DNA of 64,000 bases from Minutocellus sp. GHC0000111 (taxonomy: Eukaryota). A model generated the notes under the pieces. The model searched no databases and was not told the origin of the DNA. It saw only the letters and a list, made by a program, of their open reading frames with translations. A program made the translations under genes and the position numbers. Below, one piece after another: positions 1,483 to 63,278 of this stretch; within the stretch, counting starts at the first letter, position 1; each line of letters begins with the position of its first letter. The stretch is taken from assembly GCA_977018835.1 (NCBI GenBank), contig OZ361260.1:1922001-1986000 (forward strand), given 5' to 3'.

Positions 1483-1542
1483 GCCGTATCTTCTCCAAGC
1501 CGCTCTCTTCGGTTCATTTATTCATTTTTTTCTCTCTTTGCA

Positions 1543-3600: not shown

Positions 3601-3617
3601 GTAACGGAAAAGAATCA

Positions 3618-6600: not shown

Positions 6601-9600
6601 ATCCAAAAGGAAAGAAGAAGAAGAAAAGATGCTGCCGTGCTGGGGCCGGAGAAGAAAAAACAAAGAATAGAAACGACACTCCTGGTTTCCCAATGCGGGA
6701 TGCTCCAGCTATTACTCACGACCACAGGGGATTTCTGAAACTCGAGATGCCACGGAATCATCCGCGTTTGGTCCAAGCTCCGCTAACAATTTTGAGAGGT
6801 TGGAGAGGTAATTGCGACTTTAAAATCCTGTTGTACAAATCCACGAATGGAAAACCACATCCCGAAGAAATATCAACAGTGACCGACTATGACGTCGCTT
6901 ACCAATGCAAAGGAAATGAGAGAATCCAAGCTGAAATACAACTTCTCCGCGATTTTGCCTTAAAGTGAGTATGAATTAGTATTTGTATATTTTATGCTTC
7001 AATCTCAAACTAACAACGAGACTGCATGTTTTTATTATTATTTGAGAAAAGCGCTGAAACGATGACTGGGACAACAGCAGACGTCATCAGAGTGTCTCGA
7101 CAAATGCTCAACCGATCAATTGCAAGCAGAACAATTCCAAAGCAAGAGTGTATGGTCGAACTAGCGGAACTCCCGCTAGTCTTAAGTTCCGACACAACCG
7201 AAACAATAAACCTGTCAGGGAGTTACAAGATTAAATCGGATACTCACAGAGACTTAGTGTCCCAATATCGAAAAATCGCAAAGAGCAATCCGACAATGTC
7301 ACTACACGATTACGTTCGTAAGGCAATCAACGAGAAAAAGAGATCAGTGAAAAACGGAAAAATGAAATACAAAAACGTAATCCCGCATTACGTTGGGGCA
7401 AACGGTCAGCCGAAATACCCACCAACAAAAGAATACGCGATGGCAATTCTCATAGTACACAAACCATGGGAAGACAGCAAGCCAAAAAGAAGGAACGGAG
7501 CACAAGATTGGATCGACGAATTCAAAGAATTTGTCACATCAGAAGCGTGTCCAGAATTCGTGAAAATGGAATACGCACGAGTAAAAGAAAGAGCCGAGAG
7601 CAAGAGGCCATCCGAAGCGATATCATCAGAGGAGTGCTACGACTACGAGACACAAGCAGATGTTGACGACTCAACCAAAGATCTTTTAAATATCATCACG
7701 ACTCAAACACTGGCCACAGACCCGTTTTTAAATGTCCACGACCAAAAAATCAATAAAGGCCTACATTACGACTGGTCCGAAAGAATGTCAGTAAGTCATT
7801 TATACCTGATTTATTTTCGTCGAATATTCAACAAACATAAATGACAAAAATACATCCAACAAGGGAAATTTTTTGTTTGACACAACATCCGATATTTTTT
7901 TTATTCTATCACGCATTTTTTTTAAAAAAAAGACTAGGGATCCTTCATACCTAGGAGAGTCGTGGCTCGATGAATTAACACAGGGCTACCAAGCAGACCT
8001 CTCTGCCAAGCAGAGGGTAAGGCCTTTCACGATGACCCTCGACGGTGAAGTGACAAACATCACCATAGACCACGTGAAAGATGACCAACTCGACGTGATT
8101 TTATTGGTAGTGGAAAACATAAAGAAATGGATAGAAAGCGCAAAGGGAATCAACAAAAAGGATGCTAAAGAGTACAAGCCCCTTAGAATGACCGTAAGGG
8201 GAGCAGCAGGATCAGGTAAGAGTTTCTTCATTAAGGCCCTGGCAAATACGGTCAGAGAGATGTTTGGCGATCAAAACGCAGTTCACATATCTGCGCCGAC
8301 AGGAGCAGCAGCTCACAACGTCGGCGGCGAAACGATACACAGGAAATTCCAAGTAAATCCACACAGGCCAGAAAATGATATTGGTAAGGAGGCGAAAGCT
8401 CGATTAAAGGAAACGAAAAGAAGAACAGTGGTCGAGATAATCGACGAGAGAAGCATGCTGACATGTAAAGTCGTGGGAGCAGCAGAAAGGCACACACTGC
8501 AGAAGCAGCTCATGGAGGTTCCCACGCTAATGAAGACTGGGGTGGCATACCAGTGGTTGTATTTGTAGGCGACGACTACCAACTACCACCGCCAACAAAT
8601 GTAGAGAAAGGAGCTTTCGATCTGATGGACAGCAAGACATCATTTTCACAACAAAAGCTAGGCGACGCATCATTTGGATCACAACTCCTAATGAACATGT
8701 CAGAAAAATGCGTAGAGCTTAGGTCAGTCAGTAAAACGTCAAAATGGAACACAGTCGAAGTTCAAGGAAGTGCTACAGAATCTAAGAACAGGAGACCCCA
8801 CACACGACGATGCATCCTTTTTAATGAAGTTACATCTGGCAAACCTAACTCAAGCGGAGACAGAGGAAATGGAAAAGGACAAAGTAGTAATGCACATGTT
8901 CGCCACAAAAGCGCCACGAGACGAGTACAACGTGAGGAAACTAAGTGAAAACGCATCCGACAGAAACCCCGCGGCACTAGTTAAAGCTTCATGGAAAACA
9001 AGCAGACGAGCAAACCTACAGTCCATCGCCCAGCACTTTGACAACCCACCAGATGCAGCAACTTTAATGTGCAGAGGGTCTGTGGTCAGAATCACAGGGA
9101 AAAATTTCGAGCCAGACTTTGGACTGTTCAACAACGCCATCGGAACTGTAGAAGAAATAGTGTTCAAACCAGGGAAAGACCCGAACAATGGGGACCAACC
9201 GAGTTATGTAGCTGTGAGGTTTGAAGGATACAGCGGGCCAGCATGGGGGACGAGTCGGAACCAAAAAAAGTCCCAATTCCAATGATGGTGACAAGAAGAT
9301 GCAACAAAGGATGCTGCGAAGTGACATGCTGCCCACTAAGCCTCTCATACGGAGTGACAGCCCACACATTCCAGGGGCAATCAGCAGGACCAGTGGATGA
9401 AGGCCAACCAAAAAATGCAGTAGATTGTGTAGTGTTCTATCCAGGAAACAACAAATTCGAAGGAAACAACCCCGGCTTGTTGTACATGGGAACATCAAGA
9501 GCTACGACACATCAGGAACAGGAAGACTAGACTCAGCACTATAATATTTTTCAGGACAAGACATGAATACATACAGAGTCATAGGACTTAAATACCAACG

Positions 9601-9813
9601 AGACGGAAAAACACCATGCAAGAAAGAAGTGCAACTGAGACAAAAATGGATAGAAAGACTAGACAAAAACAAACACCATTAGAGACCAAGTTGGGACAAC
9701 AAAGAAAAAGAAGAACTAATCACATGGGCAAAGACGTTCCGAATGAGCACCAACAACCTAGAAGACATTTTAAGCATGAAAGAATGGAGAGCATGCAAAG
9801 CATAAAGCGATGA
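3618..9813 (+). pseudogene. RepHel polyprotein (ubiquitin-like / Cys motif / DUF6570-like / HUH Rep / PIF1 helicase), copy A, helicase frameshifted
   Basis: Frame-consistent GT-AG introns 4176-4309, 6400-6493, 6965-7051, 7791-7932. Rep motifs FFTLSCAEYFWPD, FEFAKGRGQIHAHIL, WRGNCDFK, DYDVAYQCK. Helicase motifs GAAGSGKS, APTGAAA, IIDERSM, GDDYQLPP, TAHTFQG, LYMGTSRA. Frameshifts near 8494, 8727, 9247, 9510. 3' end approximate. Confidence 0.9.
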
Positions 9814-10206
9814 CTCCCGTGTTTACTAATGCTGAATATTCAACAAAACTGTGTCAGACTATGACGTCATACAGAAATCAAATTCAGGGGAACATCCGGG
9901 GAAAAAGTAAGCCGGCACGAGCCTCCAGTTCATTCAACAATAGTGAGCTACAAAAATAAGCGTCGTATATTTAACATCTTAAAATCGTATAAGTATGCAA
10001 CTATAATTGCAGCAGGGAAGACGTAATTGCTAAAATGGCCCAAGGTCCCCCCAACACAACCAACGAACGACAAAACAGAGGGCACCCGGGCCCACTACGT
10101 ACCTAGGCCTAGGTACCTAGGTACATGTAGTAGGCGCCTATCACCAACCATACTACATGTAGCCTACTGAAGGTAGGCCCACACCTTGACTGGTCCAAAC
10201 GCCACG

Positions 10207-10491
10207 ATGGCTGCGCCCGAGAGATGTAGCAGATTTTGCCGGCCAGTAGTTCGTGTGCCTCTCTGGGTCAGCATGCTGTGGGCGTTTCTATTTGTCAACA
10301 CAGTGTGTCGTGTATCATGCCTCCAACAGCCGTCATCATCCAGATCTCCTCGTTGCGGCAACGGTCCTACTTCATGCACGGGCATCCGCAGCGGTGTGCC
10401 GTGCATGTCACATGCGACCACTGTACGGGCGTGTCGCGGAACGTTTGAGCGCTCGTGGCGTCGTCAACCACAGATTTTGCCTGCCCAGCGA
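10207..10491 (+). pseudogene. Duplicated 5' fragment of the FtsH-like gene
   Basis: Matches 49088-49372; identity stops abruptly after ...CCCAGCGA. Confidence 0.85.
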
Positions 10492-17905: not shown

Positions 17906-18113
17906 GATCTGATGGTACTAGCTAGTAGTATCTCTGCTGTCAGCTCTGACTTGCGCTTGCTTTGTGGCGGGTGGCACGGTGTGGATTAAGAGGGCGCTGT
18001 CCATAATTTTCCCCGTTTTTAATCCCCCTTATTCTTATTTCTTATGACGAGCGAAGCATGACAAAAACTCGACCCCACCATGAGAATCGCCGCTCTGCCC
18101 CCTCTTCATTACG

Positions 18114-19343
18114 ATGAAGCGCAGCGCTGATAATAGTGCCGGCCCGGCCCACAACGCAGATACGCGGTTGCGGAAACTCAAGACAGATAACTCCGGTCGC
18201 CCGATTTTGCCTGTTGACAAGAAGAAAGAGAAGGCGGAGGACAAAGCGAAAGACGCCGTTACCGAGATACTGGAGGGCCTCGCCGTCACGTTGGAGAACG
18301 ACCCGAACGGACAAGGACGAGAATTATGGAACAATCCCGGCGTCGGCCATGCACTTCAACATCTTGTCAAAGCAGTCGAGGCTCGCGCTGATAAGTATCA
18401 TGTTCGGGATGATATTGATGTCGCTGCTGAGCGGCCCGGCCTCGTAGTTACCAACCTGTCCGTGGCTGATGTGAAGTTGAGGCTGACGGTCGGCATCGTC
18501 GATCAATTGCAAGATCCCATGTTTGACGCCGGACCTGAATTCTTCCCTATATTTCAACTTCATGGGAAACGGATCGATATTGGATCGGCTCTTGCTGCGC
18601 ACGGCCGACCTTTCAACACCACATCGCTTACTTTGCTTGATGGAAGCGGAAAGCTTATCGTCGCTCGTGTTGCCCTGACAATTACCGAAAAGGCCCGAAG
18701 TCTACAACAGGGCCATGTGATCAAATTGACAAAGTTCCACCGATGGCATGTGGCTCCATATGATGACATACACTCTACTGCTGGGATTGGACTAGTTGAT
18801 TTTGATATTGTTGGAATGGGCCAACTTCTGCAGGTAGATGGTGGGCCATCAGCAGCGATCAGATCGGACACGGATGCTCTTGTTGCGGCCGTTTGTGAGG
18901 AAGCCGACGATGATCCGACGGCAGCGCCGGAGGCAGACACATTCGGTAATTGGGACGAGACCAGAGAGAGGCCGCCAATACCCCCTGCTTGCTGCACTGC
19001 CGCCAACCGAAGCTGCTCAATGTACGGCACACTCTTCTTTCAGAAATGCGTCTGCGAAGAAATGCTGGTGCCGACGGAGGAGGACCTGGAGGATATCGCT
19101 GACAAATACTACGCAACCACCATGCCAGTCGAAGCCATGGCAAATAATTTGAAGAGGAACATGCTGTATTGGTACTATGCAACTGAGGTGTATCATGTGA
19201 GAGGTTGGCTTGATCGGAAGCCCTTGCCAACCTGTCTAGTCTTTTGCATTAGGTTCATTTATCCAAATGATAAAGGTGAACGATATGTTGGATTCATCCC
19301 TGGTCATCAAGATGAAGAGGAAGAAGAAGAGGAAAATGCATAA
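18114..19343 (+). CDS. KolX accessory protein with putative N-terminal RPA70N-like OB fold
   Basis: C-terminal C..C..CVCEEM...RKPLPTCLVFCIRFIYP...YVGF matches the KolX / P2X7-ballast-like motif from memory. Lies inside the TIRs, tail-to-tail with the transposase. Confidence 0.8.
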   Translation: MKRSADNSAGPAHNADTRLRKLKTDNSGRPILPVDKKKEKAEDKAKDAVTEILEGLAVTLENDPNGQGRELWNNPGVGHALQHLVKAVEARADKYHVRDDIDVAAERPGLVVTNLSVADVKLRLTVGIVDQLQDPMFDAGPEFFPIFQLHGKRIDIGSALAAHGRPFNTTSLTLLDGSGKLIVARVALTITEKARSLQQGHVIKLTKFHRWHVAPYDDIHSTAGIGLVDFDIVGMGQLLQVDGGPSAAIRSDTDALVAAVCEEADDDPTAAPEADTFGNWDETRERPPIPPACCTAANRSCSMYGTLFFQKCVCEEMLVPTEEDLEDIADKYYATTMPVEAMANNLKRNMLYWYYATEVYHVRGWLDRKPLPTCLVFCIRFIYPNDKGERYVGFIPGHQDEEEEEEENA

Positions 19344-19447
19344 TCATTACCTCAACACATGTAGATAACAAGAATGTGCGTAGCACGTGAGTAACAGCAC
19401 ACAATAAATCCATTTTTATTTACAGTGATAAAATATTTTGCACGTGT

Positions 19448-21970
19448 TTACAAGCTGCCATTTTCTCTCAGTATCGCCGGCATCCAAGAGCTAACATCAT
19501 TTGCCGATACACCGAAGTTTGTCTTAGCTTTCTTATTATTTCTTGCAGATTTCTTGTTGCTGCCTGGGCTTCTGCGCTTCTTTCCGGCGTAAACGACAAC
19601 GTCGTCAGCATCGTCGCATTGACATTCAGCCCGAGTGTGGCCAAGCTGCTTGCATTTCTGACACTGCTGGTCAATCTTCTTCTTGCGGCCAGGCTTTGCT
19701 GGTTTCGCCTTACCAGCAGCTAGGGCCCTGTTCTTCTTGTACACATAGTCCTTGTCGTCTTTCTCGCTTCTGTTTCGCAAGGCTGCTCGAAGGCGCTTGC
19801 TGTCGCTCTTGCTCTTTTTGTACTCATCGGTGCGCTTACGCGCAAGGTCGCCCTCGAGCTTCCGGTCAATTGCATCGAATCCATCTTTTCGGGTAGGAGA
19901 ATCCCTCGATCCCAACTTTCCAAGAACTCGCTCATTGAATTCCGTACCCAGTGACTTGTGGCCAGCGGCTCTACTTGTTGCATTTGGGTAGGCGTCTGAA
20001 GCAGTCAAATTCGGCCTTTTCCCCATCGTGAACTTCGTCACCATCCCGTTGAGCTGTTCGACGCCGGTGGTAGATTCCTTCTTGCAGTTGGAGTCGGCAG
20101 TATTCTTGTTGATTCTCTTGGTTATTTCAAGCGTCATCTTGCGAATCGTGTCGTCACTAATCTCCAACATGTCGCCATCGAATTGATTCCCCGAGCTCCA
20201 TTCCTCATCGAGCTTGCCATCACTCCAATCAGGATGAGCAATGCTGAGGCGAATCCAATCACACGTGTTGGTGGTGCAAAAAGTGTGAATGCCACATTGG
20301 TGACGAACGACGGACTGGAGTTCTTTCTGAAGGAGGGCCAGATGACTTTGTTTTTCCTCCTCGGACACAGCACCATCGGGCTGATCGAGAACGCTGTGCT
20401 TGTACCGATCAGCAATCTTCGAAATGTCCTGTTTCATCCGATTGATGCGTGGTCGGGGGATGGCATTAAAATTTTCAACTCCTTTGCATGCTTTTCGAAA
20501 GCCTGAGTCAATTGAATTGCTCAGATGATTAAAGTCACGGCAAAGCTCAACACCAGAAGCCAACTCATCACCTACTATGTCTTCCTGAGCGGCTGCTGCC
20601 CTGGCAATGCCTTTGCTGTCGCCATCGGCAACGTGCTTCTCAACGAAAAGAGGACACGCCTGCACGCTTCCTTCATCGTCGACCAGAAGATTCCGTCCAA
20701 CATTCTCGGCCAGATGCTCCTCTGCCACACCGGGGGAGTAGGAAGAGTTGCGATAGCAGAAGCCATCATGGTCGTACAGGGCCAGTGTCTCATCCTTGCT
20801 CATGTTTTTGAGCTCACTCGGCGTTGTTGGATTGCCGGCTTCCCGCCTCTCCCTCAATCTTGCATTGCAGGCTCTCACGCAATAGTGGCAGCTTGCCTGA
20901 GAGATTCCCTTGTCAACAACAAGGCCAGTTTCCTTGTCTACGGCAAATACCGCTGCAGCAGAGCCAGTGTAGCAATGGCCGTAGTCAGTCGCGTTTGAGG
21001 GCGCTGCCGTCTTGGGCCACCGCAACCACCGCCGCCGTGTGCATCTCGCCGCCTTGTTCAAACTCAACAGTCTTGCTGCTAGCGGCATGTGCTTTTGCCC
21101 TGTTCTCGTCAATGATTTCATCAGCTGCTTCAACAGCCGCTGCTCTGCATTTCTTTTCCACCTGTCGGGCATTCTTTTCGGTCGGATGGCCTTCGTGCAG
21201 AAACTCATGAAGCGACTTGCGCACATGGCCTCATCTTCCGCTGCCTCCATCAGCTCCAAGTTCATTCCAGCCTGACTTCTAGAATGCTTTCTGCCGGGGC
21301 ACACAACTTCTGACCTCTGGCCGATCCAAGTGCAAAAAGAAAAAGGTTGGTTGCATCTGTCGCATCGCCATTCAAATGTAACGCCGAATCCACGGCGAAC
21401 TGGCTCGGCCGAGAGACACAGATTGCCGCACGATCGGTGGAGATTCTGTGCGAAATCATGCAGCTGCTTCATCTCAACCACAATTCTTTTGCCGTTGAGC
21501 TGCACGCCGGTGATGTTGGGACGATCGGCAGCGTTGGCGGTGGGAGCAGATGACCGACCGACCGAAGAATTCTTGTCGGAACAACATTTCAGCGTCGCGT
21601 TGAGATGGGGCCCATGCTTTTCATCGTCCTGGAAGTAATTTTCAGGTGTGGTCGGCAGTGATCGCTTGCCATTGCGTTGAGAGCGTGGGCTGGCGTTGTC
21701 GGCTATTCTGGAGAAGCGGTAGAAGGGCTTTGCAACGTCAAGGCCTGATGTTTTCTCTGGACGTCGTCGTTGGATGTTGACCTCGTGTCGTGTTGGGACG
21801 TGTTGAAGAGATGATCGAACAAGAGAGATCTCTAAGCTCGGCGATGCGCCACCGCGCATCAAGATGCGGACAAGCTCATCAACAGTGCAGCAAGTACATC
21901 TGACGTCGTCTGGGAATGAGAGCAAGAGTGAGAGGATTGCCTCCTTAGCGTTAGCACGTGATGTTTCCAT
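19448..21970 (-). CDS. Kolobok (Mutator-like domain) DDE transposase, carrying two compensating frameshifts
   Basis: Motifs SCHYC, HDGFCYRN, ADGDSKG, ELCRDFNH, HQCGIHTFC...CDW, STTGVEQLNG and C-terminal knuckle CQKCKQLGHTRAEC. The first catalytic Asp motif (VAQDGSALKR) lies in another frame at 20985-21224. Confidence 0.85.
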   Translation of the reverse strand: METSRANAKEAILSLLLSFPDDVRCTCCTVDELVRILMRGGASPSLEISLVRSSLQHVPTRHEVNIQRRRPEKTSGLDVAKPFYRFSRIADNASPRSQRNGKRSLPTTPENYFQDDEKHGPHLNATLKCCSDKNSSVGRSSAPTANAADRPNITGVQLNGKRIVVEMKQLHDFAQNLHRSCGNLCLSAEPVRRGFGVTFEWRCDRCNQPFSFCTWIGQRSEVVCPGRKHSRSQAGMNLELMEAAEDEAMCASRFMSFCTKAIRPKRMPDRWKRNAEQRLLKQLMKSLTRTGQKHMPLAARLLSLNKAARCTRRRWLRWPKTAAPSNATDYGHCYTGSAAAVFAVDKETGLVVDKGISQASCHYCVRACNARLRERREAGNPTTPSELKNMSKDETLALYDHDGFCYRNSSYSPGVAEEHLAENVGRNLLVDDEGSVQACPLFVEKHVADGDSKGIARAAAAQEDIVGDELASGVELCRDFNHLSNSIDSGFRKACKGVENFNAIPRPRINRMKQDISKIADRYKHSVLDQPDGAVSEEEKQSHLALLQKELQSVVRHQCGIHTFCTTNTCDWIRLSIAHPDWSDGKLDEEWSSGNQFDGDMLEISDDTIRKMTLEITKRINKNTADSNCKKESTTGVEQLNGMVTKFTMGKRPNLTASDAYPNATSRAAGHKSLGTEFNERVLGKLGSRDSPTRKDGFDAIDRKLEGDLARKRTDEYKKSKSDSKRLRAALRNRSEKDDKDYVYKKNRALAAGKAKPAKPGRKKKIDQQCQKCKQLGHTRAECQCDDADDVVVYAGKKRRSPGSNKKSARNNKKAKTNFGVSANDVSSWMPAILRENGSL

Positions 21971-22550
21971 GGTTGTTTTTTTGTTTTGTGTCGGTTCTGG
22001 CGCAAGACACGCTTTTCGATGAGAACCTTACAAAAAGAACCCCAAATGAGGGAGACGTGCAAAAATACCCCAAACAAATATCCCCTTACCTCCCAACAGC
22101 AAAACTTCAAGATATCTTCCCACCAGCACCACCAATGCTGGTCATGCGTCGGCCGAGACTAATTTCGGTCGATCCGACGATGATGTGCACGTCGACCATT
22201 GCATTTCTGAGGGAGAGTTGATTCATCGAAGTTCCTCTGAACCAAGTGTTCCTGGAGGGATTTCCGACTTAATTCTGAAAGGAACGTCGATGACTCTTCG
22301 CCACTGTGGAGAGCGGCGGCCTTCGATGAGGAGCCCATTGTCGCGTTGGAGTGCTAACTTTGGCGATGGTGCGAAGAAGAAACGGCACAAAACACGCATT
22401 TTGGGGGCTTCCTAAAAGTTATGGACAGCGCCCTCTTAAGGTGGCAGATCCCCTTGAACACATGTAGATAACAAGAATGTGCGTAGCACGTGAGTAACAG
22501 CACACAATAAATCCATTTTTATTTACAGTGATAAAATATTTTGCACGTGT

Positions 22551-25073
22551 TTACAAGCTGCCATTTTCTCTCAGTATCGCCGGCATCCAAGAGCTAACAT
22601 CATTTGCCGATACACCGAAGTTTGTCTTAGCTTTCTTATTATTTCTTGCAGATTTCTTGTTGCTGCCTGGGCTTCTGCGCTTCTTTCCGGCGTAAACGAC
22701 AACGTCGTCAGCATCGTCGCATTGACATTCAGCCCGAGTGTGGCCAAGCTGCTTGCATTTCTGACACTGCTGGTCAATCTTCTTCTTGCGGCCAGGCTTT
22801 GCTGGTTTCGCCTTACCAGCAGCTAGGGCCCTGTTCTTCTTGTACACATAGTCCTTGTCGTCTTTCTCGCTTCTGTTTCGCAAGGCTGCTCGAAGGCGCT
22901 TGCTGTCGCTCTTGCTCTTTTTGTACTCATCGGTGCGCTTACGCGCAAGGTCGCCCTCGAGCTTCCGGTCAATTGCATCGAATCCATCTTTTCGGGTAGG
23001 AGAATCCCTCGATCCCAACTTTCCAAGAACTCGCTCATTGAATTCCGTACCCAGTGACTTGTGGCCAGCGGCTCTACTTGTTGCATTTGGGTAGGCGTCT
23101 GAAGCAGCCAAATTCGGCCTTTTCCCCATCGTGAACTTCGTCACCATCCCGTTGAGCTGTTCGACGCCGGTGGTAGATTCCTTCTTGCAGTTGGAGTCGG
23201 CAGTATTCTTGTTGATTCTCTTGGTTATTTCAAGCGTCATCTTGCGAATCGTGTCGTCACTAATCTCCAACATGTCGCCATCGAATTGATTCCCCGAGCT
23301 CCATTCCTCATCGAGCTTGCCATCACTCCAATCAGGATGAGCAATGCTGAGGCGAATCCAATCACACGTGTTGGTGGTGCAAAAAGTGTGAATGCCACAT
23401 TGGTGACGAACGACGGACTGGAGTTCTTTCTGAAGGAGGGCCAGATGACTTTGTTTTTCCTCCTCGGACACAGCACCATCGGGCTGATCGAGAACGCTGT
23501 GCTTGTACCGATCAGCAATCTTCGAAATGTCCTGTTTCATCCGATTGATGCGTGGTCGGGGGATGGCATTAAAATTTTCAACTCCTTTGCATGCTTTTCG
23601 AAAGCCTGAGTCAATTGAATTGCTCAGATGATTAAAGTCACGGCAAAGCTCAACACCAGAAGCCAACTCATCACCTACTATGTCTTCCTGAGCGGCTGCT
23701 GCCCTGGCAATGCCTTTGCTGTCGCCATCGGCAACGTGCTTCTCAACGAAAAGAGGACACGCCTGCACGCTTCCTTCATCGTCGACCAGAAGATTCCGTC
23801 CAACATTCTCGGCCAGATGCTCCTCTGCCACACCGGGGGAGTAGGAAGAGTTGCGATAGCAGAAGCCATCATGGTCGTACAGGGCCAGTGTCTCATCCTT
23901 GCTCATGTTTTTGAGCTCACTCGGCGTTGTTGGATTGCCGGCTTCCCGCCTCTCCCTCAATCTTGCATTGCAGGCTCTCACGCAATAGTGGCAGCTTGCC
24001 TGAGAGATTCCCTTGTCAACAACAAGGCCAGTTTCCTTGTCTACGGCAAATACCGCTGCAGCAGAGCCAGTGTAGCAATGGCCGTAGTCAGTCGCGTTTG
24101 AGGGCGCTGCCGTCTTGGGCCACCGCAACCACCGCCGCCGTGTGCATCTCGCCGCCTTGTTCAAACTCAACAGTCTTGCTGCTAGCGGCATGTGCTTTTG
24201 CCCTGTTCTCGTCAATGATTTCATCAGCTGCTTCAACAGCCGCTGCTCTGCATTTCTTTTCCACCTGTCGGGCATTCTTTTCGGTCGGATGGCCTTCGTG
24301 CAGAAACTCATGAAGCGACTTGCGCACATGGCCTCATCTTCCGCTGCCTCCATCAGCTCCAAGTTCATTCCAGCCTGACTTCTAGAATGCTTTCTGCCGG
24401 GGCACACAACTTCTGACCTCTGGCCGATCCAAGTGCAAAAAGAAAAAGGTTGGTTGCATCTGTCGCATCGCCATTCAAATGTAACGCCGAATCCACGGCG
24501 AACTGGCTCGGCCGAGAGACACAGATTGCCGCACGATCGGTGGAGATTCTGTGCGAAATCATGCAGCTGCTTCATCTCAACCACAATTCTTTTGCCGTTG
24601 AGCTGCACGCCGGTGATGTTGGGACGATCGGCAGCGTTGGCGGTGGGAGCAGATGACCGACCGACCGAAGAATTCTTGTCGGAACAACATTTCAGCGTCG
24701 CGTTGAGATGGGGCCCATGCTTTTCATCGTCCTGGAAGTAATTTTCAGGTGTGGTCGGCAGTGATCGCTTGCCATTGCGTTGAGAGCGTGGGCTGGCGTT
24801 GTCGGCTATTCTGGAGAAGCGGTAGAAGGGCTTTGCAACGTCAAGGCCTGATGTTTTCTCTGGACGTCGTCGTTGGATGTTGACCTCGTGTCGTGTTGGG
24901 ACGTGTTGAAGAGATGATCGAACAAGAGAGATCTCTAAGCTCGGCGATGCGCCACCGCGCATCAAGATGCGGACAAGCTCATCAACAGTGCAGCAAGTAC
25001 ATCTGACGTCGTCTGGGAATGAGAGCAAGAGTGAGAGGATTGCCTCCTTAGCGTTAGCACGTGATGTTTCCAT
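22551..25073 (-). CDS. Second copy of the Kolobok transposase
   Basis: 840-aa ORF matching 19448-21970 apart from T/A in NL(T/A)AS; followed by a second right TIR ending 25538 and TTAA. Confidence 0.85.
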   Translation of the reverse strand: METSRANAKEAILSLLLSFPDDVRCTCCTVDELVRILMRGGASPSLEISLVRSSLQHVPTRHEVNIQRRRPEKTSGLDVAKPFYRFSRIADNASPRSQRNGKRSLPTTPENYFQDDEKHGPHLNATLKCCSDKNSSVGRSSAPTANAADRPNITGVQLNGKRIVVEMKQLHDFAQNLHRSCGNLCLSAEPVRRGFGVTFEWRCDRCNQPFSFCTWIGQRSEVVCPGRKHSRSQAGMNLELMEAAEDEAMCASRFMSFCTKAIRPKRMPDRWKRNAEQRLLKQLMKSLTRTGQKHMPLAARLLSLNKAARCTRRRWLRWPKTAAPSNATDYGHCYTGSAAAVFAVDKETGLVVDKGISQASCHYCVRACNARLRERREAGNPTTPSELKNMSKDETLALYDHDGFCYRNSSYSPGVAEEHLAENVGRNLLVDDEGSVQACPLFVEKHVADGDSKGIARAAAAQEDIVGDELASGVELCRDFNHLSNSIDSGFRKACKGVENFNAIPRPRINRMKQDISKIADRYKHSVLDQPDGAVSEEEKQSHLALLQKELQSVVRHQCGIHTFCTTNTCDWIRLSIAHPDWSDGKLDEEWSSGNQFDGDMLEISDDTIRKMTLEITKRINKNTADSNCKKESTTGVEQLNGMVTKFTMGKRPNLAASDAYPNATSRAAGHKSLGTEFNERVLGKLGSRDSPTRKDGFDAIDRKLEGDLARKRTDEYKKSKSDSKRLRAALRNRSEKDDKDYVYKKNRALAAGKAKPAKPGRKKKIDQQCQKCKQLGHTRAECQCDDADDVVVYAGKKRRSPGSNKKSARNNKKAKTNFGVSANDVSSWMPAILRENGSL

Positions 25074-25659
25074 GGTTGTTTTTTTGTTTTGTGTCGGTTC
25101 TGGCGCAAGACACGCTTTTCGATGAGAACCTTACAAAAAGAACCCCAAATGAGGGAGACGTGCAAAAATACCCCAAACAAATATCCCCTTACCTCCCAAC
25201 AGCAAAACTTCAAGATATCTTCCCACCAGCACCACCAATGCTGGTCATGCGTCGGCCGAGACTAATTTCGGTCGATCCGACGATGATGTGCACGTCGACC
25301 ATTGCATTTCTGAGGGAGAGTTGATTCATCGAAGTTCCTCTGAACCAAGTGTTCCTGGAGGGATTTCCGACTTAATGCTGAAAGGAACGTCGATGACTCT
25401 TCGCCACTGTGGAGAGCGGCGGCCTTCGATGAGGAGCCCATTGTCGCGTTGGAGTGCTAACTTTGGCGATGGTGCGAAGAAGAAACGGCACAAAACACGC
25501 ATTTTGGGGGCTTCCTAAAAGTTATGGACAGCGCCCTCTTAAGGTGGCAGATCCCCTTGTTTCCGCCTTCATGATATTTTTCGGGGTGTTGACAACATTG
25601 ATCAAAATTTCATACTAATCCCAACTTTGTAACATTGAAAGCATGTGAAATTGAAGCTG

Positions 25660-27086
25660 TCAATTTTTACAAAAGGTTATTGTGAGAGGACGTTCTGCAT
25701 CTCGAATGATGCCAGCAATTGTTTTTTCGTCGGCCGCTGCAGTAACTACAGCATTGCCAACTGCAACAATCCTGTCACCTGTTCTGATTGCTGTAAGAGA
25801 ATTGTCCAGCACTTTGTCTACCACAGCTGATCTGAGGCTTAGCCCTAACTTTTGCCCTGAGAAGGACAGAGAATATGTCTTACCTACACAATCAGCAAAT
25901 TCAATTGCAAGATGACGGTATGCCATTACAACAGATCTTCCTGGCTGAGGCTGGCCCGCAACGTGAGACGATCTGTGGCGATACTGGCGGTGCATTGCAA
26001 TTGCAAGCCAAATAATTTTACGAAAGAATTGATTCAAAGAATCCATCCTTCTGAATTGCATGCACAAAAGATTTTGTCGATAGTAGCTGCACCAAAGTAT
26101 CGACCGTCGCATATTCCTCCTTGAGTAGCCGCTCTATCGCCGGAAAGAAGTCATCCTTCTGCACCGCGTATGCAAAAGATGGCGTTGATAGTAGCTGCAC
26201 CAAAGTGTCGACCGTCGCATATTCCTCCTTGAGTAGCCGCTCGATAGATTCAAAGAATCCATCCTTTTGCATGGCGTTCGCAAAAGATCGCGTTGATAAT
26301 ATCCGTACCAAATCATCTGCTGATGCATGTTCCTCGTTGAGTAGCCGCTCGATAGATTCAAAGAATCCATCCTTCTGCACCGCATAGGCAAAAGATGGCG
26401 TTGATAGTAGCTGCACCAAAGTGTCGACCGTCGCATATTCCTCCTTGAGTAGCCGCTCGATAGATTCAAAGAATCCATCCTTTTGCATGGCGTTCGCAAA
26501 AGATCGCGTTGATAACATCCGTACCAAATCACCAGCTGATGCAAATCCCTCCTCAACCAGCTTGGTTATTGCTGGAAAGAAGGCATCCTTCTGCACAGCG
26601 CCAGCCAACGCAGGGGTGGACAGCAGCCGAACCAAATCATCCCGAGATTCGACGTATCGATCTGCTTGCAGTTTGTCGACAGAAAGATACAAATCCTCGT
26701 CGAGCAGCCGAGATGCGAAAACGGGGGTTTCCAGAAACTTGATCATTTCCCCCTTAGAAAACCCCCCCCCCATCCTCGCTCATCAAAAATTCGATTTTGC
26801 GTCGGCACTCGCCCCCAGCAAGATCGAGCGTCCGCAACACCCTCATCTTGCTTGGCCATCTATCACCATCTATATTGAGAAGGGCCCGAATAGCTCTAGA
26901 TTCCTCCACCTGTGCCTTGTCTTCTGCCTTTAGATGCTTGGATAGATAGTCATCAATCTCAGGAACAGAAGGAGCATCACCACGTGAACTCTTCATCTCA
27001 TTGAACCCCTTCATAATTCGGAACGACCGCTCCAAGTATCTACGCGCGGATCCCTTCCCTCTGGCCATCATTGCAGAGCTTGGATG
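25660..27086 (-). pseudogene. 36-aa helical tandem-repeat protein with C-terminal PDZ-like domain; 5' end unclear, frame broken
   Basis: Six 108-bp repeats (DxLVxxLSTxSFAxAxQKDGFFESIERLLKEEYATV) at ~26020-26645. Frame break at C-run 26762-26771. C-terminal KLGLSL...GDRIVAVG...RPLTITF. Confidence 0.6.
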
Positions 27087-48694: not shown

Positions 48695-49087
48695 CTCCCG
48701 TGTTTACTAATGCTGAATATTCAACAAAACTGTGTCAGACTATGACGTCATACAGAAATCAAATTCAGGGGAACATCCGGGGAAAAAGTAAGCCGGCACG
48801 AGCCTCCAGTTCATTCAACAATAGTGAGCTACAAAAATAAGCGTCGTATATTTAACATCTTAAAATCGTATAAGTATGCAACTATAATTGCAGCAGGGAA
48901 GACGTAATTGCTAAAATGGCCCAAGGTCCCCCCAACACAACCAACGAACGACAAAACAGAGGGCACCCGGGCCCACTACGTACCTAGGCCTAGGTACCTA
49001 GGTACATGTAGTAGGCGCCTATCACCAACCATACTACATGTAGCCTACTGAAGGTAGGCCCACACCTTGACTGGTCCAAACGCCACG

Positions 49088-51330
49088 ATGGCTGCGCCCG
49101 AGAGATGTAGCAGATTTTGCCGGCCAGTAGTTCGTGTGCCTCTCTGGGTCAGCATGCTGTGGGCGTTTCTATTTGTCAACACAGTGTGTCGTGTATCATG
49201 CCTCCAACAGCCGTCATCATCCAGATCTCCTCGTTGCGGCAACGGTCCTACTTCATGCACGGGCATCCGCAGCGGTGTGCCGTGCATGTCACATGCGACC
49301 ACTGTACGGGCGTGTCGCGGAACGTTTGAGCGCTCGTGGCGTCGTCAACCACAGATTTTGCCTGCCCAGCGACGATCGGCCCTCTTCAGCAGCTCCCCCG
49401 ATGCCAGCATCGATGGTGACGATGGGAAGAAGGAAAGAGAAGGAGGACGGCGGCGCAGTGGCGGTGGTGGTCGATGGATCAGCAAGCTTAATCCAGTTCC
49501 TCGGATGAAGAAAATTGTGGCCAGCATAATCGCATTTCAAGCTGCGTTCCGAACTCGCTTCGCGGCTCTGCCCCGCAAAGCTAAACTGGTGGTTTTGGCG
49601 CAGCTTCTTGCGCTGGGACTTGTGGTTGGTTCCGTTGGGCGGAAGGTATACGTCAACACCTCGCAGGGACAGGCGGCTGTGGCTGCACGGCCGGTGGAAG
49701 TGCCCTACTCCACATTCATGGACATGGCCGAAATCAGTGGAAAGGGCCACGTCCCTGGTAAAAATCCTGCAATCGTTATCGACAATTTGGTCATCGGAAG
49801 GGATCGGGTTGGATTTCGTCTATCTCAAGACGAGGAGAAGCATCAGGTGGCCCTTCAGGACAAGAAACTAGCGGAAGATGACCCAGCCATCAAGTTCATC
49901 AGCGAGCGGAAAGTTTATGCCATGAAACCACCGGCCAATCAGGATATGATCGATTTCCTCCGCGGAAACGGCATTCCTTTCCGCGCAGCCTCGACAAAGG
50001 GTACCAATGCTGCTGCGACCGTTGCCCGCTCTGCAATCTTTCTAATTTACGTTCTATTCCTTCTGAGAATGTATCGTTCCATGTCAGGTGGTGGTGGCAG
50101 TGGTGATACCCCGGGAAAGCTTGCTCTTTCTATGGACGACGAAACCATTGTCAAGTTTGAAGACATTGAGGGCATCGACAAGGCCAAGTTCGAAGTCATG
50201 GAGTTCGTTGATACTCTGCGCCATCCCCAAAAGTATGCCATTTTGGGCGCAAGACCACCGACGGGGCTGCTCCTTGAGGGTCCTCCAGGTTTGTGATTTT
50301 CTCTTGGTGTTGAATGATTTCTCTCCTGGTGTTGATCAAGGAACTAAAGGAAGTTTTTTCGTGCTATCCTCCATATGCTTGTTCCTAACTTTTCATCTCT
50401 TTCCCTTCACTTAGGTACCGGCAAAACTATGCTTGCACGCGCAACGGCAGCTTCGGCTGGAGGTAGGTTTTGCTGTTTATGTTTCGCGTGCCATTCTAGA
50501 TATGATTCAGCTAGCTAGCTAGCTAGCTAGCTAGCTACGTAGCATTACCGCGCCGTGCCTCACCAATCAATTGTCACATCTATTTGTTGTTTACATGTGC
50601 TTCATGAAAAGTCCCTCTACTCTACTGCTCGGGATCTGACTTTGTTGAAATGTTTGTCGGCCGTGGTGCTGCAAGGGTGCGCAAGACATTTGCTCGAGCG
50701 GCGAAGATGGCCCCATGCATCATATTCATTGATGAGTTGGATGCGTTGGGCAAATCGAGAGCAATGGGAGGTCTCGGCGCCAATCTTCGCAGCAATGATG
50801 AAGCCGAGCAGACTCTCAATCAGCTACTAGCATGCATGGATGGGCTCGACTCATCTCGTGGAGTTTGCGTCTTGGCTGCCACAAATCGTAGAGATATTTT
50901 GGACCCTGCCTTGGTTCGACCTGGACGATTTGATCGCATCATCAAAGTGGAGCTGCCAGATTTGGAGGGCAGAGAGCGGATACTCAGGGTGCATGCCAAG
51001 AAACTGCCTGGATTCACGGAAGGGAAGGGCATCGACGAGAAGAGGCTGGGAAGTCTTGGCAAGGGCAAAGCGGTGGACCTATCGGCTGTTGCTGCTGTGA
51101 CAAATGGTCTTTGTGGCGCCGAGCTGGAATTCGTTGTCAATGAAGCTGCCATTCGCGCCGTTCGGCGTGTAAGCGCTCAACTCAACCAAGGCAAAGAACC
51201 CAAGGCCGTGACTCCTCAAGTGACGGCAGAAGATTTTGAGGCCAGCGTGGCCAATTACTATGCCACAAGAAAACCTGGTGGAGGATCAGGCGGAGTGGGG
51301 CAGTTGTTAATTAATGCACTAACAAAGTAG
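49088..51330 (+). CDS. FtsH-like membrane AAA+ ATPase lacking the M41 protease domain
   Basis: Two TM segments, VPYSTF, Walker A GPPG|TGKT across intron 50289-50414, intron 50463-50611, [30 protein letters not shown]. Stops soon after the AAA lid; no HExxH. Confidence 0.85.
50509..50536. repeat. (AGCT)n microsatellite in FtsH intron 2
   Basis: About seven AGCT units read directly. Confidence 0.9.
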
Positions 51331-58620: not shown

Positions 58621-59517
58621 TATGTTTGCAATATTGCCGCTTTTCGGAAGCAAAAAGTTCTCTTCTTTGTTCTTTCTCGATCGATGAGCGTTGCCTCTTT
58701 CTTCTTGGCGTGTTTTTTGTTCTCAACGCGGACGGCACAACAAGATATCCCCGTGTAGATGAAACGTCCTTTCTTGCCAATTGGCCAGAGATGGAGAGAT
58801 GAGAGCTTTACCCGACCAAACAAGTTCGGGAAACGATTCGATTCAAAAAAGCTTCCGACACTTGATCTGAATAAGCGAGCCTTGGGTCTTGTCGCTCTGG
58901 AAAAAGAGCACGTAGTAATGATACGGAGGAACGGAGAGCGATGTGAATTGAATTTCCCGCTAATGGAATGCAAGGCGTCTGAGGCAGAGGTGCGTTGACC
59001 AGCTCAAATGGCAGAGACCCAAGCGCTTGCCACCCAAAAGCAGTTCGAACTCGACTGGTTTAGACGATCCGCGTGAAGTGTCGGAAAATGAGGGTGGCGG
59101 ATTGCGGGGCGACCAACAGAAGGGACTTGAATATTTCGGTGCTGTGTCTGTATAACTTTTTAGAGAGGCGAGGCGGGCTCGAGTACTTGAATACTTACAG
59201 AGAGAAGAAAGAGAAAAAGAGGCAAAAGAGGCAAGGACCACCGCACGCACTGCGTGCTCCCGGACGGACGGACCGCAGAACAGAATACCGGTACCACAAG
59301 CAATTGCAATTGCAGTACCTAGCTAGTAGAGGTACACCCAGTCAAGATGGACTCCCGTACTAGTAGAGGATACGCAGACAGCGGGAGGGCTGGTGCTTCG
59401 AGAGCTACTACAAGCAGAGGTGATTCGATCCATTTCGATTCTTCAAATACTCGCACAGAGGAACCAGTGGTTCGCATTCGCGAGCGCACGTGGTAGCAGC
59501 ACTGCCTTCTTCTCTTT

Positions 59518-61221
59518 TTGCTACACTTAATATTCCTTGCGTTGCGTCCCGTTACTAGTCTAGTACATGTATTGACTGAAAGTTCCCCCCTTTCTATTTT
59601 GCCGCTGTTTCTCTTTTATACATTGGTAACGTGCATGATGTATGTGTTGGCTTTATTTATCTCTGTCCGACTTGGTCTCGAAGCAACGCATGATGATAAG
59701 GATGAGCGCATTGGCAGATACCACCACGGAAGGCCCCACTCGTACAGAAACGAAGAATTCGATTCCAATCGTCGTGGAAATGAAACTAGAGGAGGTGGTG
59801 GTAGTGATGGAGAATACGGTCACAATTATCGGCGACCTCGCCATTGCACGAGCGAAGGTGACGATGATTATCGCAGGTACCGAGATCATGGCATAGCTTC
59901 TTCTACGGGTACGAGTAGTGCTGGTGGTGACAAACGGCCCAGCAAACGGCCGAAACAACAGAAGCGAATCTGGCCACCTCCCTTCGATACCGACGGTGCC
60001 CTATACGTCTTCGATTCCAGAAGTGGATTCTTTTACGAAGCTGAAAGCAACTTCTACTTCGACCCAAAATCACGCTACTACTACTCCATCGACGCGGCGG
60101 CATACTTTCAGCACTACAAGGGGCAGGAACCACCGTTTCGAAAAGTTTCCCCGCAGCAAGAGGAAGAGAAAAAGAAGAAGGAAGAGCAAAAGAAGCGAGA
60201 GATGGACAAGCACACGATTAGTGACGCCGAGCAGGCTGGTCTTCCCGCTACCATATCTAACAATGAAGGCGGTGAAGTTGGCTCGGGCAAGATGAAGATT
60301 GCAATTTCACTAAAAACAAAAACGCCACTGGGCTCTGGAGCCACTAGATCTACTAGCTCCCTGAAATCACCCATGGATACGCGCATAGTTGAAAACTCAT
60401 CAATGGTTGGGCGAGAGCGACAAAGTTCTCCGACGACTCAATCCCGTGGAATCAAGCAGATACAGGCGCAGGCGTATGATGCTGACATTGCCAAGTGGAA
60501 CAATGCCAGATCGAGCAATACAACCACGTCCACTAGTTCGATACCGGCGGATTATAAGAACACTCCCAAAACTACCAAGGCGGGCCAGCCCATCTGCCTT
60601 TTGTGCCGTCGTAAATTTGCCAACACTGAGGCGCTGCAGAAGCATGAGCAATCGTCAGCTCTACATAAACAGAACCTTGCGAAGAAGAAAAGGGACCCTA
60701 CAAACAGTGGAGTTCCCAATCCTAGTGGAGCTGAGAGCAACGGCAAATCTTCTATAGAATATCGTGATCGTGCCAAAGATCGACGGTCTATGTATGGTAT
60801 TGAATCGAGCCACGGCGAGGAAGCAGCACCATTGACGGCGTCCACCGCATCATCCACTGGTATTGCAAGCACTGTCATTTCGTCGGCGTCGGCGGTCGAT
60901 ATTGGACCAAGTCTAGAAAAGGCCAGGCCTGTTGTCTCAGCAGAGTTGGTGAGGCCATCGGATGCTTTGGGGGACTCAAACATTGGAAGCCAAATGCTCA
61001 AGAAACTTGGTTGGAAACAGGGGTCGTCGTTAGGACGGGAGCAGGGCAACAGCGATGTTGGCCATGGTAGAGGTTCTGATGCCAACGCACAAATGGTCAA
61101 AGAATGGGAGACCATCGAGACTGCTGCTGCAGCCTCTTCCCAAACTGCTGCTGCTCGAGAAGGCACCAATAATAATAACAGCCGGGCAGGCGTTGGGGCA
61201 GGGCGTAGTAGATCTAGGTGA
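59518..61221 (+). CDS. OCRE / C2H2 zinc finger / G-patch protein (like the RBM5/10 C-terminal half); true start uncertain
   Basis: YVFDSRSGFFYEAESNFYFDPKSRYYY, CLLCRRKF...HEQSSALHKQNL, YRDRAKDRR, SNIGSQMLKKLGWKQGSSLG. Confidence 0.85.
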   Translation: MLHLIFLALRPVTSLVHVLTESSPLSILPLFLFYTLVTCMMYVLALFISVRLGLEATHDDKDERIGRYHHGRPHSYRNEEFDSNRRGNETRGGGGSDGEYGHNYRRPRHCTSEGDDDYRRYRDHGIASSTGTSSAGGDKRPSKRPKQQKRIWPPPFDTDGALYVFDSRSGFFYEAESNFYFDPKSRYYYSIDAAAYFQHYKGQEPPFRKVSPQQEEEKKKKEEQKKREMDKHTISDAEQAGLPATISNNEGGEVGSGKMKIAISLKTKTPLGSGATRSTSSLKSPMDTRIVENSSMVGRERQSSPTTQSRGIKQIQAQAYDADIAKWNNARSSNTTTSTSSIPADYKNTPKTTKAGQPICLLCRRKFANTEALQKHEQSSALHKQNLAKKKRDPTNSGVPNPSGAESNGKSSIEYRDRAKDRRSMYGIESSHGEEAAPLTASTASSTGIASTVISSASAVDIGPSLEKARPVVSAELVRPSDALGDSNIGSQMLKKLGWKQGSSLGREQGNSDVGHGRGSDANAQMVKEWETIETAAAASSQTAAAREGTNNNNSRAGVGAGRSRSR

Positions 61222-61472
61222 CGTGTGATGCCATCGGCACATGTAGATCTGAAAAAGACCTTGAAGAAGTTAGATCTACTTGTAACAAGAGCTGTTGTAT
61301 ACCGGTACCGGTACATGTATGTTCACATGTACATGTAGATCTACATGTAGATCTATCGGTACATGTAGACTAGAAATTACAAATCAGCAAAGAATGTCAC
61401 TAGTAGGCGAGTTAGGTGATCGTTGCTACTACCGGTACAGAGACCAACTCTATACATATCTATATAGGCCTA

Positions 61473-62971
61473 GAGTGATTCCACGAGACCGCCGACAAAA
61501 TCGCCGAAAATAGTAAGGCACTAGGAAATTTTTTTGTGCGATACTTTATGCAGCGCAAAAATGAACCCACTAAATGGCCTCTCTCAACACGGCGAAAGCA
61601 AGGAGAATTCATCTCCACAAGAAGGCCACCAAATGATGGTATAACGATAAATAACTCCAAGCCAACCGATGTATACGCCAACTACATGCGTTAGGTGAGT
61701 ATTGCATACTTGAAAGCAAACTCATTCGTACATCATGTGCTATTTTAGCAACATCTCCTCATGCCCAGAAATTTTCAATATTTTTTTACCCTCAAAATGG
61801 CAAAGAATGATGGCTGATGCTTGTCTACATCCATTTCAATCCTCCCTGACCGGCATTACTTTCACCTGGGTAATATTGGGAGCAAGTTTGCGCCAGAGGG
61901 TCGATATTGGGCCCCATCTTTGTATCATTGTGGCCGTCACCATGGAAAGCAAAAACATCTGAAAGTAGCAAATCCCCAACTACAACCCCCTTCAAGCCTC
62001 AACCACTGTTCCTTCACGCAACATCAGCACGCACGATGCTCATTCTATATTACATCCATCGATCTCACGTGTTGGTTTGGCCGCTTTCTCCGGTTTCGTT
62101 CCTCTCGGGCGGCAGAAGCAATGAAGGTGAAATCTGGTGCCGACATCAGACACGGGACTTTGGGAATAGTTTTCTCTATGAATTGTCAAGAAATGCCACC
62201 ATTCCTCACTCAAATGCGCTTGGTATATATATGGGTGAAGCGTCGACGGCTCAGTGCAACGGAAGTGGTGCATGGACCGCATAAAAGCATCCGGACCAAC
62301 TTTCGGATGGGTGGTGTAATGGGGGTGGTAATGGCGCTGGGCCACAATTCGCGGTACAGGCACGCACCGACGCACCGCTATCGCCCAAAAATCCCTTCCA
62401 GTAATATTCAGGAAGGCATCTAGGTGGTCAGAGTGTATGCGATGGCCGGGGTGGTGCTGTACATCGGGCGAACATGGTCGTGATGGAACGTCGGAAACTG
62501 TCGAAAAAATCGGGTCTAACGCGAACGAATTTTTCAAGGCTCAAAAAAGTAATTGCAAGTCTCCTGCTGCACCACAGTGTTGTGAAAGGCTATTACAAGG
62601 GTATGGTGCCCCGTAGTCTTGATTGTTCTCAATGGGAGGCACGTCGGCGACACATGTTGTGGCCCCATTCGTTGAACGAAATGGGTTTTGTTTCGTTATA
62701 AAGTTTGATGTATTTTTTCTTTCTTGAAACAGCACAAGTGTATTCTACGACATAAAAATAAATTTTCAAACAATAGTGTACCAAAAGAAACACTCTAATA
62801 CCGTATCTATATCATGTGCTAAAAGAGCACCAAGATCATTGTACCAACTTCCTTTTATTGTTGATTATGGTCTACAATACCCTTCTGAGTAAGGATCATC
62901 AATAAAAGGAAGTTGGTACAATGTTTACGAAACATCGCGGAGGGGGTGTCTGCTCTCTCGTGAAATCACTC
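61473..62971. mobile_element. Non-autonomous TIR element (1,499 bp) with long target-site duplication
   Basis: Imperfect ~25-bp TIRs (GAGTGATTCCACGAGACCGCCGACA vs GAGTGATTTCACGAGAGAGCAGACA), flanked by TACATATCTATATAGGCCTA at 61453-61472 and 62972-62991. Confidence 0.8.
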
Positions 62972-63278
62972 TACATATCTATATAGGCCTATAGATCTAC
63001 CGGTACCATTGGTCACACATGTTTTCCTTGCGTGTTTTCCGTTCGTGTTGGGGGTTGCGTTGCCAACAACAACAACAACAACAACAACACACATTCTGAA
63101 ATCAGATCTAGATACTAGTAGTACCGGTACATGTATGTTATCCTCGTCCCTCTCGACATCAAACCGGAGACAAAACACCTCTCGAGCAAGAGGTCCTGGA
63201 TCGACTTATTCGACTGGCCAGCTGCCTCAGATCAGATAGGAACGCAATCGCAACGGCACAAAACGAAAGCAAGCAACC

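What the first reader, a model, noticed from the sequence alone, without database searches (positions are those of the whole stretch)
61453..62991. TIR element flanked by a 16-20 bp target-site duplication
Seen: exact direct repeat TACATATCTATATAGGCCTA on both sides of a 1,499-bp element with GAG...CTC termini (or TAG...CTA termini with a 16-bp duplication). Known: eukaryotic cut-and-paste superfamilies typically make 2-11 bp TSDs; longer ones are known from casposons and some bacterial IS elements. Inference: may mark an uncharacterised transposase family with widely staggered cuts.
Basis: partly seen in the sequence, partly recalled or inferred. Interest (0 to 1): 0.7.

Follow-up and report, generated by a model that had tools for sequence, protein, structure and literature searches.

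The report
Diatom-type transposon, 20-base flanking repeat
This is a real, many-copy, gene-less 1.5-kb jumping DNA element in a likely diatom genome, and the copy here sits between two identical 20-base stretches; the family likely inserts into short TA-type sites with little or no duplication, so the long repeat likely formed when this copy's two ends joined at two neighbouring sites.

Summary
Observation confirmed: an exact 20-bp direct repeat flanks a 1,499-bp non-coding element with 25-nt terminal inverted repeats. It is a young, dispersed family: depth about 115-130 times the flanks, one internal ORF product on 55 contigs, absent at the same site in a related lineage. That the family routinely makes 16-20-bp duplications is not shown. 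Across other copies the bases touching the element are fixed (A|GAG...CTC|T) and the next base is mixed (TA/CA left, TA/TG right). The only other two-ended copy (L004) has no exact flanking repeat, but may be a collapsed assembly. A fixed 20-bp duplication fails in 3 of 4 other right flanks. Both outer edges of the 20-mer are themselves TA^TA sites (about 2% by chance). Best reading (0.5): a Spy/ATon-like inserter between A and T, whose two ends here joined two target sites 20 bp apart. Routine long duplication stays possible (0.27). Long duplications are already known in one eukaryotic group (IS481EU). No transposase was found; the genome was not available.

The parts
61473..62971 (.). Non-autonomous TIR element, 1,499 bp (1,501 bp if the touching A and T belong to it); no coding signal
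   Evidence: many copies:
61473..61497 (+). Left terminal inverted repeat (25 nt, 4 mismatches to the right arm)
62947..62971 (-). Right terminal inverted repeat; the last 50 bases of the element are identical in L004
61453..61472 (+). Left copy of the exact 20-bp direct repeat; its last base (A, 61472) is where contigs of the family begin
62972..62991 (+). Right copy of the 20-bp direct repeat; its first base (T, 62972) is shared by all 5 right flanks seen
61451..61454 (.). TA^TA site at the outer left edge of the duplicated stretch
62990..62993 (.). TA^TA site at the outer right edge of the duplicated stretch
62837..62923 (.). Subterminal palindrome (29-bp arms, 29-nt spacer), 48 bp from the right end; arms change together between subfamilies
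   Evidence: z -7.65; L004 z -4.67; 2 of 25 pairs changed on both sides; loose ends
61376..61448 (.). Piece of a different short high-depth repeat just left of the insertion (context)
59497..61221 (+). Upstream host gene, OCRE / zinc finger / G-patch (RBM5/10-like); the element lies about 250 bp past its stop (context)

Best explanation
This is a young, many-copy, gene-less TIR element that is likely moved by a transposase encoded elsewhere and likely inserts between A and T in a short YA^TR site with no duplication, while the 20-bp repeat of this copy likely arose because its two ends were joined at two such sites 20 bp apart. Shown: TIRs, many copies, no coding signal, fixed A and T at the ends with a mixed next base, and a TA^TA site at each outer edge of the 20-mer. 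Inferred: a cut-and-paste (DDE) enzyme acting in trans; each active site reading a palindromic YA^TR around its target bond; both attacking one site (blunt joint, as described for Spy) in most insertions, and two sites about two helical turns apart here, with host fill-in copying the 20 bases between. A crossover between two alleles inserted at the two sites would leave the same picture.
For: Contigs of the family begin at 61472 in X2 (record 61472-62211), and the distances to contig ends point to 61472 in X18, X9 and X13; X2's other record ends at 62972. Flanks of other copies: left CA (L004), CA (X1); right TA (L004), TG (X1 and X18), TA (X11), TA (X12): 6 of 6 fit Y-A / T-R, chance 0.04 locally and 0.007 window-wide. 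L004 has no exact flanking repeat under any of 4 boundaries, though its last 50 bases are unchanged (decay under about 6%). Base 20 of the right flank is not A in 3 of 4 other copies (read by hand). Both outer edges of the 20-mer are YA/TR, seen in 1.4-1.9% of comparable segments; these edges were not used to derive the motif. Precedents: Spy inserts in AAA|TTT without duplication (PMC4122938); ATons are TIR elements flanked by A and T (PMC3422177); one IS481EU family makes 4, 15 and 24 bp; Replitron-1 and some algal Helitrons, whose kin make none, make variable duplications (PMC10288648).
Against: Only two copies have both ends. L004 is a 2,042-bp metagenome contig with 17-18 bases of left flank, so its flanks may come from different copies, and its left TIR differs at 5 of 17 bases. 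Its flanks also share CTACCGGT near the register of a 19-bp duplication (11 of 17 aligned, null p 0.08), which leans toward the rival. The outer-edge test was thought of after looking, and the site is dense in YA^TR (5 within 21 bases). No empty site with an alignable 20-mer was seen in 8 of 8 runs laid. The X1 left-flank joint has a short side of 22 letters, which the tool flags as less reliable. No transposase was identified.
Confidence: 0.5

Rival explanations
1. The family routinely makes 16-20-bp (or variable long) target duplications through a widely staggered cut; the ends would be AGAG..CTCT (18 bp), YAGAG..CTCTR (16 bp) or GAG..CTC with a TR...YA target.
For: The repeat is exact and abuts both TIRs in a young copy. 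L004's flanks have a weak in-register likeness (p 0.08) and its lack of an exact repeat could be an assembly chimera. No canonical 4- or 8-bp duplication is exact in either two-ended copy. IS481EU and IS1202 show that DDE enzymes can do this.
Against: No exact repeat in L004. Fixed 20 bp ending in A fails in 3 of 4 right flanks. The 18- and 16-bp readings need the extra T/A or TA/TA matches and the outer TA edges to be chance or added preference.
Confidence: 0.27
2. A TA-duplicating (Tc1/mariner-type) element: either inserted at the middle TA of an 18-bp tandem duplication that was already there, or joined at two TA sites; the CA and TG flanks of other copies would be later mutation of TA.
For: The window copy has TA on both sides; 5 of 8 flanks seen are TA and the other 3 are single transitions of TA. 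Earlier notes report TA-to-CA/TG change in diatom repeats. Only 37 of 76 internal TA steps are kept in L004. A 12-bp tandem duplication lies about 100 bp upstream.
Against: Transition rate at YpA (0.158) is only slightly above YpC and YpG (0.139, 0.132). Three of 6 flanks altered has p 0.03 even at 13% per site. X2's two contigs both stop one base short of TA, which a rough simulation gives at 0.4% if 90% of copies had TA. No perfect non-microsatellite tandem of 13-30 bp exists in the 64 kb.
Confidence: 0.12
3. The long repeat is not a product of insertion at all: assembly merging of a filled and an empty haplotype, or local repair after insertion.
For: Neither junction of this copy appeared in a listed contig; the X15 right-flank contig starts at 62995. 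The related lineage has other letters just before 62989.
Against: The repeat abuts both TIRs to the base and both its outer edges are target-like sites. The host contig is megabase-sized (3.28 Mb for the neighbouring gene), which suggests long reads (inference).
Confidence: 0.11

Closest known systems
Spy transposons (PHIS superfamily; PMC4122938 passages and part 2 of 4; PMC11304231 passages)
   Same: TIRs; 1-1.5-kb non-autonomous members; fixed A on the left and T on the right; likely no duplication in ordinary copies.
   Different: Spy targets AAA|TTT (AAWTT) and starts GGANNNNG; here the flanks are YA|TR and the end is GAGTGATT. Spy was reported from invertebrates. No Spy copy with a 20-bp duplication appears in the passages read.
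ATons of Aedes aegypti (PMC3422177, parts 1-3 of 4)
   Same: Non-autonomous, TIRs of 15-17 bp, flanked by A and T, some with subterminal stem-loops, mobiliser unknown.
   Different: ATons are under 500 bp and all have T next to the 5' A; this element is 1.5 kb and has G.
IS481EU / Banshee of parabasalids (PMC10045372, parts 1-3 of 5)
   Same: Eukaryotic TIR elements with long duplications, and with discrete lengths (4, 15, 24 bp) inside one family.
   Different: Ends are TNT..AYA; lengths about 4, 15, 25; only parabasalids. Here GAG..CTC and 20 (or 18, 16) bp.
Kolobok (PMC9587614, passages)
   Same: RR..YY ends; known from a diatom; a Kolobok-type element with GAG..CTC ends and TTAA flanks lies in this window (17990-22435).
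   Different: No TTAA at any of 8 flanks seen; its TIR matches this element only in GAG.
Replitrons and Helitrons (PMC10288648 section 9 part 1; PMC9977147 passages)
   Same: Subterminal hairpin near one end; Helitrons insert between A and T; variable duplications occur in some algal families.
   Different: No direct terminal repeat and no TC..CTRR ends; true TIRs at both ends instead.

Membership tests
Non-autonomous TIR DNA transposon | Terminal inverted repeats | tested here: met
   21 of 25 bases
Non-autonomous TIR DNA transposon | Dispersed copies with sharp common ends | tested here: met
Non-autonomous TIR DNA transposon | No transposase gene | tested here: met
   No Pfam hit above cut-off in 12 of 12 frames; substitutions not codon-biased; ORF lengths within chance
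Spy (PHIS) | Inserted between A and T without duplication | tested here: inconclusive
   Fits L004 and 6 of 6 outside flanks; not this copy; no empty site
Spy (PHIS) | AAA|TTT target and GGANNNNG end | tested here: not met
   Flanks YA|TR, end GAGTGATT
Spy (PHIS) | Spy-type DDE transposase in a partner with the same ends | not testable with these tools
   Genome not held
ATon | TIRs flanked by A and T | tested here: met
ATon | T next to the 5' A; under 500 bp | tested here: not met
   G; 1,499 bp
IS481EU | TNT..AYA ends | tested here: not met
IS481EU | Duplications of about 4, 15 or 25 bp | tested here: inconclusive
   16 bp only if the ends are TAGAG..CTCTA; otherwise 18 or 20
Tc1/mariner | TA duplication on both sides | tested here: not met
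   Met by this copy, but 3 of 6 other flanks are CA or TG
Kolobok | RR..YY ends | tested here: met
Kolobok | TTAA duplication | tested here: not met
   0 of 8 flanks
hAT | YARNG end (motif recalled, from no call) | tested here: inconclusive
   TAGAG/CAGAG fits only if the mixed base belongs to the element
hAT | 8-bp duplication | tested here: not met
   0 of 2 two-ended copies
Mutator/MuDR | 9-12-bp duplication | tested here: not met
   0 of 2
Sola (features recalled; paper not held) | GRG/GAG ends with a 4-bp duplication | tested here: not met
   Window CCTA vs TACA; L004 3 of 4 bases
Harbinger / Pangu / Nuwa / ISL2EU | TWA, ANT, CWG, TNA or AT duplication | tested here: not met
   No 3-bp or AT repeat at any boundary in either copy
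Helitron | TC..CTRR ends, no TIRs | tested here: not met
Replitron | Short direct terminal repeats shared by all copies | tested here: not met
   The 20-mer is unique to this site; depth falls to flank level outside the element

The most novel reading that the evidence does not exclude
A diatom-type genome carries an active TIR family whose unknown transposase reads a palindromic YA^TR at each active site and can join the two ends either at one site (no duplication) or at sites two helical turns apart (about 20 bp), making long target duplications a regular product: a second eukaryotic long-duplication lineage, unrelated in its ends to IS481EU.
Probability: 0.3. Interest if true: 0.7.

Novelty: new variant of a known kind. 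Interest (0 to 1): 0.42.

Why it matters
Duplication length is a main key for classifying gene-less transposons and reflects how the enzyme holds its target. An element with fixed A and T at its ends, a YA^TR preference and at least one exact 20-bp duplication fits no superfamily signature tested here. If long duplications are common in the family, it gives about a hundred natural insertions with which to test the open question raised for IS481EU: how one enzyme makes staggers a helical turn or two apart. If they are rare, it is a Spy/ATon-like family outside animals plus one odd insertion, of modest interest.

Tried and rejected
Whole genome: not held; L004's record not searchable by handle. 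Other copies: none in the window; metagenome scan gave 6 loci, 1 real (L004) and 5 chance matches; viral scans gave 12, 8 and 0 loci with no real copy; protein-pattern scans gave 1 weak locus (L027, 35 residues, E 2e-4, not followed up) and 0; prokaryote genome scans 0 and 0. Empty site: no joint skipping just the element in 8 runs; 8 of the 19 listed runs were laid. Coding remnant: rejected by Pfam, coding model, neutral substitution pattern and ORF-length null; the 322-aa database protein from L004 is a TGA read-through call; Atlas best score 0.75, not informative. The 16 protein hits are ORF calls on copies of the element. Rfam: 6 matches, all far below gathering scores. Sigma-70 scan is irrelevant for this host and at chance. 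The window's Kolobok and Helitron elements as mobilisers: no shared ends beyond GAG. LINE-type retrotransposition: no tail, exact TIR ends. Reading other copies' flanks through proteins that cross the left end: the window's own ORF is not in the collection and the large protein search never ran, so flank statistics remain at 6 outside flanks. Binding or folding jobs were not relevant.

Full report
Observation. The 20-mers at 61453-61472 and 62972-62991 are identical and enclose 1,499 bp that begin GAG and end CTC; the arms agree at 15 of 16 and 21 of 25 terminal bases. The repeat starts and ends with TA, so it reads as 20 bp (GAG ends), 18 bp (AGAG ends) or 16 bp (TAGAG ends). Chance is negligible: about 1e-12 by Markov models of the flanks, at most 33 in 200,000 by resampling palindrome-rich intergenic DNA, and it is the only long case among 2 hits of a de novo scan of the window.

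Host and setting. The window is eukaryotic and gene-dense. The element lies about 250 bp past the stop of an OCRE / G-patch gene. Among 39 relatives of that protein the only one that names an organism is from Attheya, a diatom, at 33% identity; 'diatom-like' is therefore an inference. Intergenic DNA is rich in TA-nnnn-TA palindromes. No whole genome was held.

It is a young, dispersed family. Single internal contigs have depth 13,010 against about 100 for the flanks in run X15 and 24,990 against about 220 in X18, ratios of 129 and 114; the tool warns that depth is not copy number. Independently, one 100-residue ORF product from inside the element is recorded on 55 contigs of up to 5.3 Mb. The window copy differs from the majority letter at 7 listed places (table cut). 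Runs X9 and X12, from a related lineage, each hold a contig joining 61276-61278 to 63004, so the element is absent there, but the letters between are not given. Older subfamilies at about 80% identity exist: L004 aligns over the whole length.

It is non-coding. No Pfam family passes cut-off in 12 of 12 frames of the two copies. Substitutions are even over codon positions (37, 37, 38 in the longest block), a coding model scores it at background, and the longest ORFs are within chance (p 0.14 to 0.57). A palindrome at 62837-62923 folds far better than shuffles in both copies (z -7.65 and -4.67); 2 of 25 pairs change on both sides between them, and loose ends in X15 show a third left arm and a third right arm that are exact complements over 16 bases (separate contigs, so their pairing is inferred). 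It is probably a binding or structural signal that the family keeps (inference).

What other copies say about the junction. In low-depth run X2 the two contigs end exactly at 61472 (A) and 62972 (T); distances to contig ends in X18, X9 and X13 also point to 61472. Flanks read for other copies are CA (L004) and CA (X1) on the left, and TA (L004), TG (X1 and X18), TA (X11, a copy with no difference over 183 bases) and TA (X12) on the right. One more left junction (X13) has two unaligned letters that are not printed, and I left it out. So the touching A and T are fixed and the next base is Y on the left and R on the right in 6 of 6 (chance 0.04 to 0.007). A 2-bp duplication with fixed A and T must be TA, and 3 of 6 are not. 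Earlier notes on TA-to-CA/TG change in diatom repeats made me test this: YpA transitions are only slightly raised here (0.158 against 0.139 and 0.132), and a rough simulation makes X2's pattern unlikely if 90% of copies had TA (0.4%). A fixed 20-bp duplication needs A at base 20 of each right flank; it is C in 3 of 4 (the fourth, X12, is partly inferred from the stretch it aligned to).

The second two-ended copy. L004 has no exact flanking repeat under four boundary choices; its best near match is 3 of 4 bases. Its last 50 bases equal the window's, which bounds decay at about 6%, so a long duplication should have survived. Against this: only 17-18 bases of left flank are present, the left TIR differs at 5 of 17 bases, a short contig of a repeat can join flanks of different copies, and a gapped alignment finds 11 of 17 matches in a 19-bp register (null p 0.08). 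L004 therefore counts against routine long duplication, but weakly.

The site itself. The base pairs just outside the 20-mer are also target-like: TA^TA at 61451-61454 and TA^TA at 62990-62993. Among intergenic segments of 14-26 bp that start TR and end YA, 1.9% (20 or so of 1,073) have both outer edges so, and 1.4% window-wide. The test was post hoc and the spot is dense in such sites (5 in 21 bases).

Mechanism. Shown: TIRs, copy number, no gene, fixed A|T, mixed next base, two target-like edges. Inferred: a transposase from an unseen partner excises the element at its TIRs and joins both ends in the middle of one YA^TR site, as Spy does at AAA|TTT. In this copy the left end was joined after the second TA and the right end before the first, 20 bp apart (about two helical turns); fill-in of the gaps copied the 20 bases. 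Crossover between two alleles inserted at the two sites would look the same. I give this 0.5; routine long duplication 0.27; TA-type element 0.12; assembly or repair origin 0.11.

Comparison. It works most like Spy and ATon but is a member of neither: the AAA|TTT target, the GGANNNNG end and ATon's inner T were tested and not met. Kolobok ends fit but TTAA does not. IS481EU is the published eukaryotic case of long and mixed duplication lengths, with other ends. What I saw: PMC10045372 parts 1-3 of 5; PMC3422177 parts 1-3 of 4; PMC4122938 passages and part 2 of 4; passages of PMC4482050, PMC11304231, PMC9587614, PMC9977147, PMC4455052 and PMC8547959; PMC10288648 passages and section 9 part 1. 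No figures or supplements were seen; IS481EU, Spy and PHIS supplements list family ends and could bear on classification. Sola and hAT end motifs are recalled. Ten searches (listings only) showed no description of this family or of a long-duplication TIR element in diatoms; Repbase could not be searched. No look-alike was in the scan's earlier notes.

Verdict. A real, apparently undescribed non-autonomous TIR family with an unusual junction signature and one exact 20-bp flanking repeat. Whether the long repeat is the rule or an exception is open and can be settled in minutes with the assembly. Interest 0.42; 0.7 if long duplications prove regular (probability about 0.3).

Noticed in passing
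window 17990-22435 (second right end at 25538): Kolobok-type element: TTAA on both sides, 18-nt TIRs starting GAG (1 mismatch), two convergent ORFs, one with Pfam PF20700. Its right 3,103 bp are tandemly duplicated (19354-25559), giving two near-identical transposase ORFs.
   Followed up: partly
window 1-10491 and 38882-49372: 10.5-kb segment present twice with one mismatch; holds Helitron_like_N and PIF1 helicase ORFs in pieces. A recent Helitron copy or an assembly duplication.
   Followed up: partly
window 61376-61448: Short repeat with very high depth in 6 of 8 runs laid, a sharp left edge at 61376 with many different flanks, no TIR seen and no second copy in the window. Unclassified.
   Followed up: no
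run X18, joint 61534 to 62890: A contig at single-copy depth skips 1,355 bases of the element: likely a short internal-deletion derivative.
   Followed up: no
run X18, record matching window 62488-62693: A 1,765-bp contig shares only this part, after 1,557 other bases: a possible longer relative or autonomous partner; its sequence could not be read.
   Followed up: no
runs X1 and X18, joint 62972 to 61508: A right end followed by 33 letters that resemble a diverged left end: a copy abutting or nested in an older relative.
   Followed up: partly
window 26031-26641: Coding tandem repeat with a 108-bp unit, about 4.5 copies, only weak Pfam hits.
   Followed up: no
window intergenic regions: TA-nnnn-TA palindromes are abundant (19, 16, 15, 9 and 8 copies of the five commonest octamers).
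   Followed up: partly
L027 4001-4105: Weak 35-residue match (49%, E 2e-4) of an element ORF in a viral contig; probably chance.
   Followed up: no
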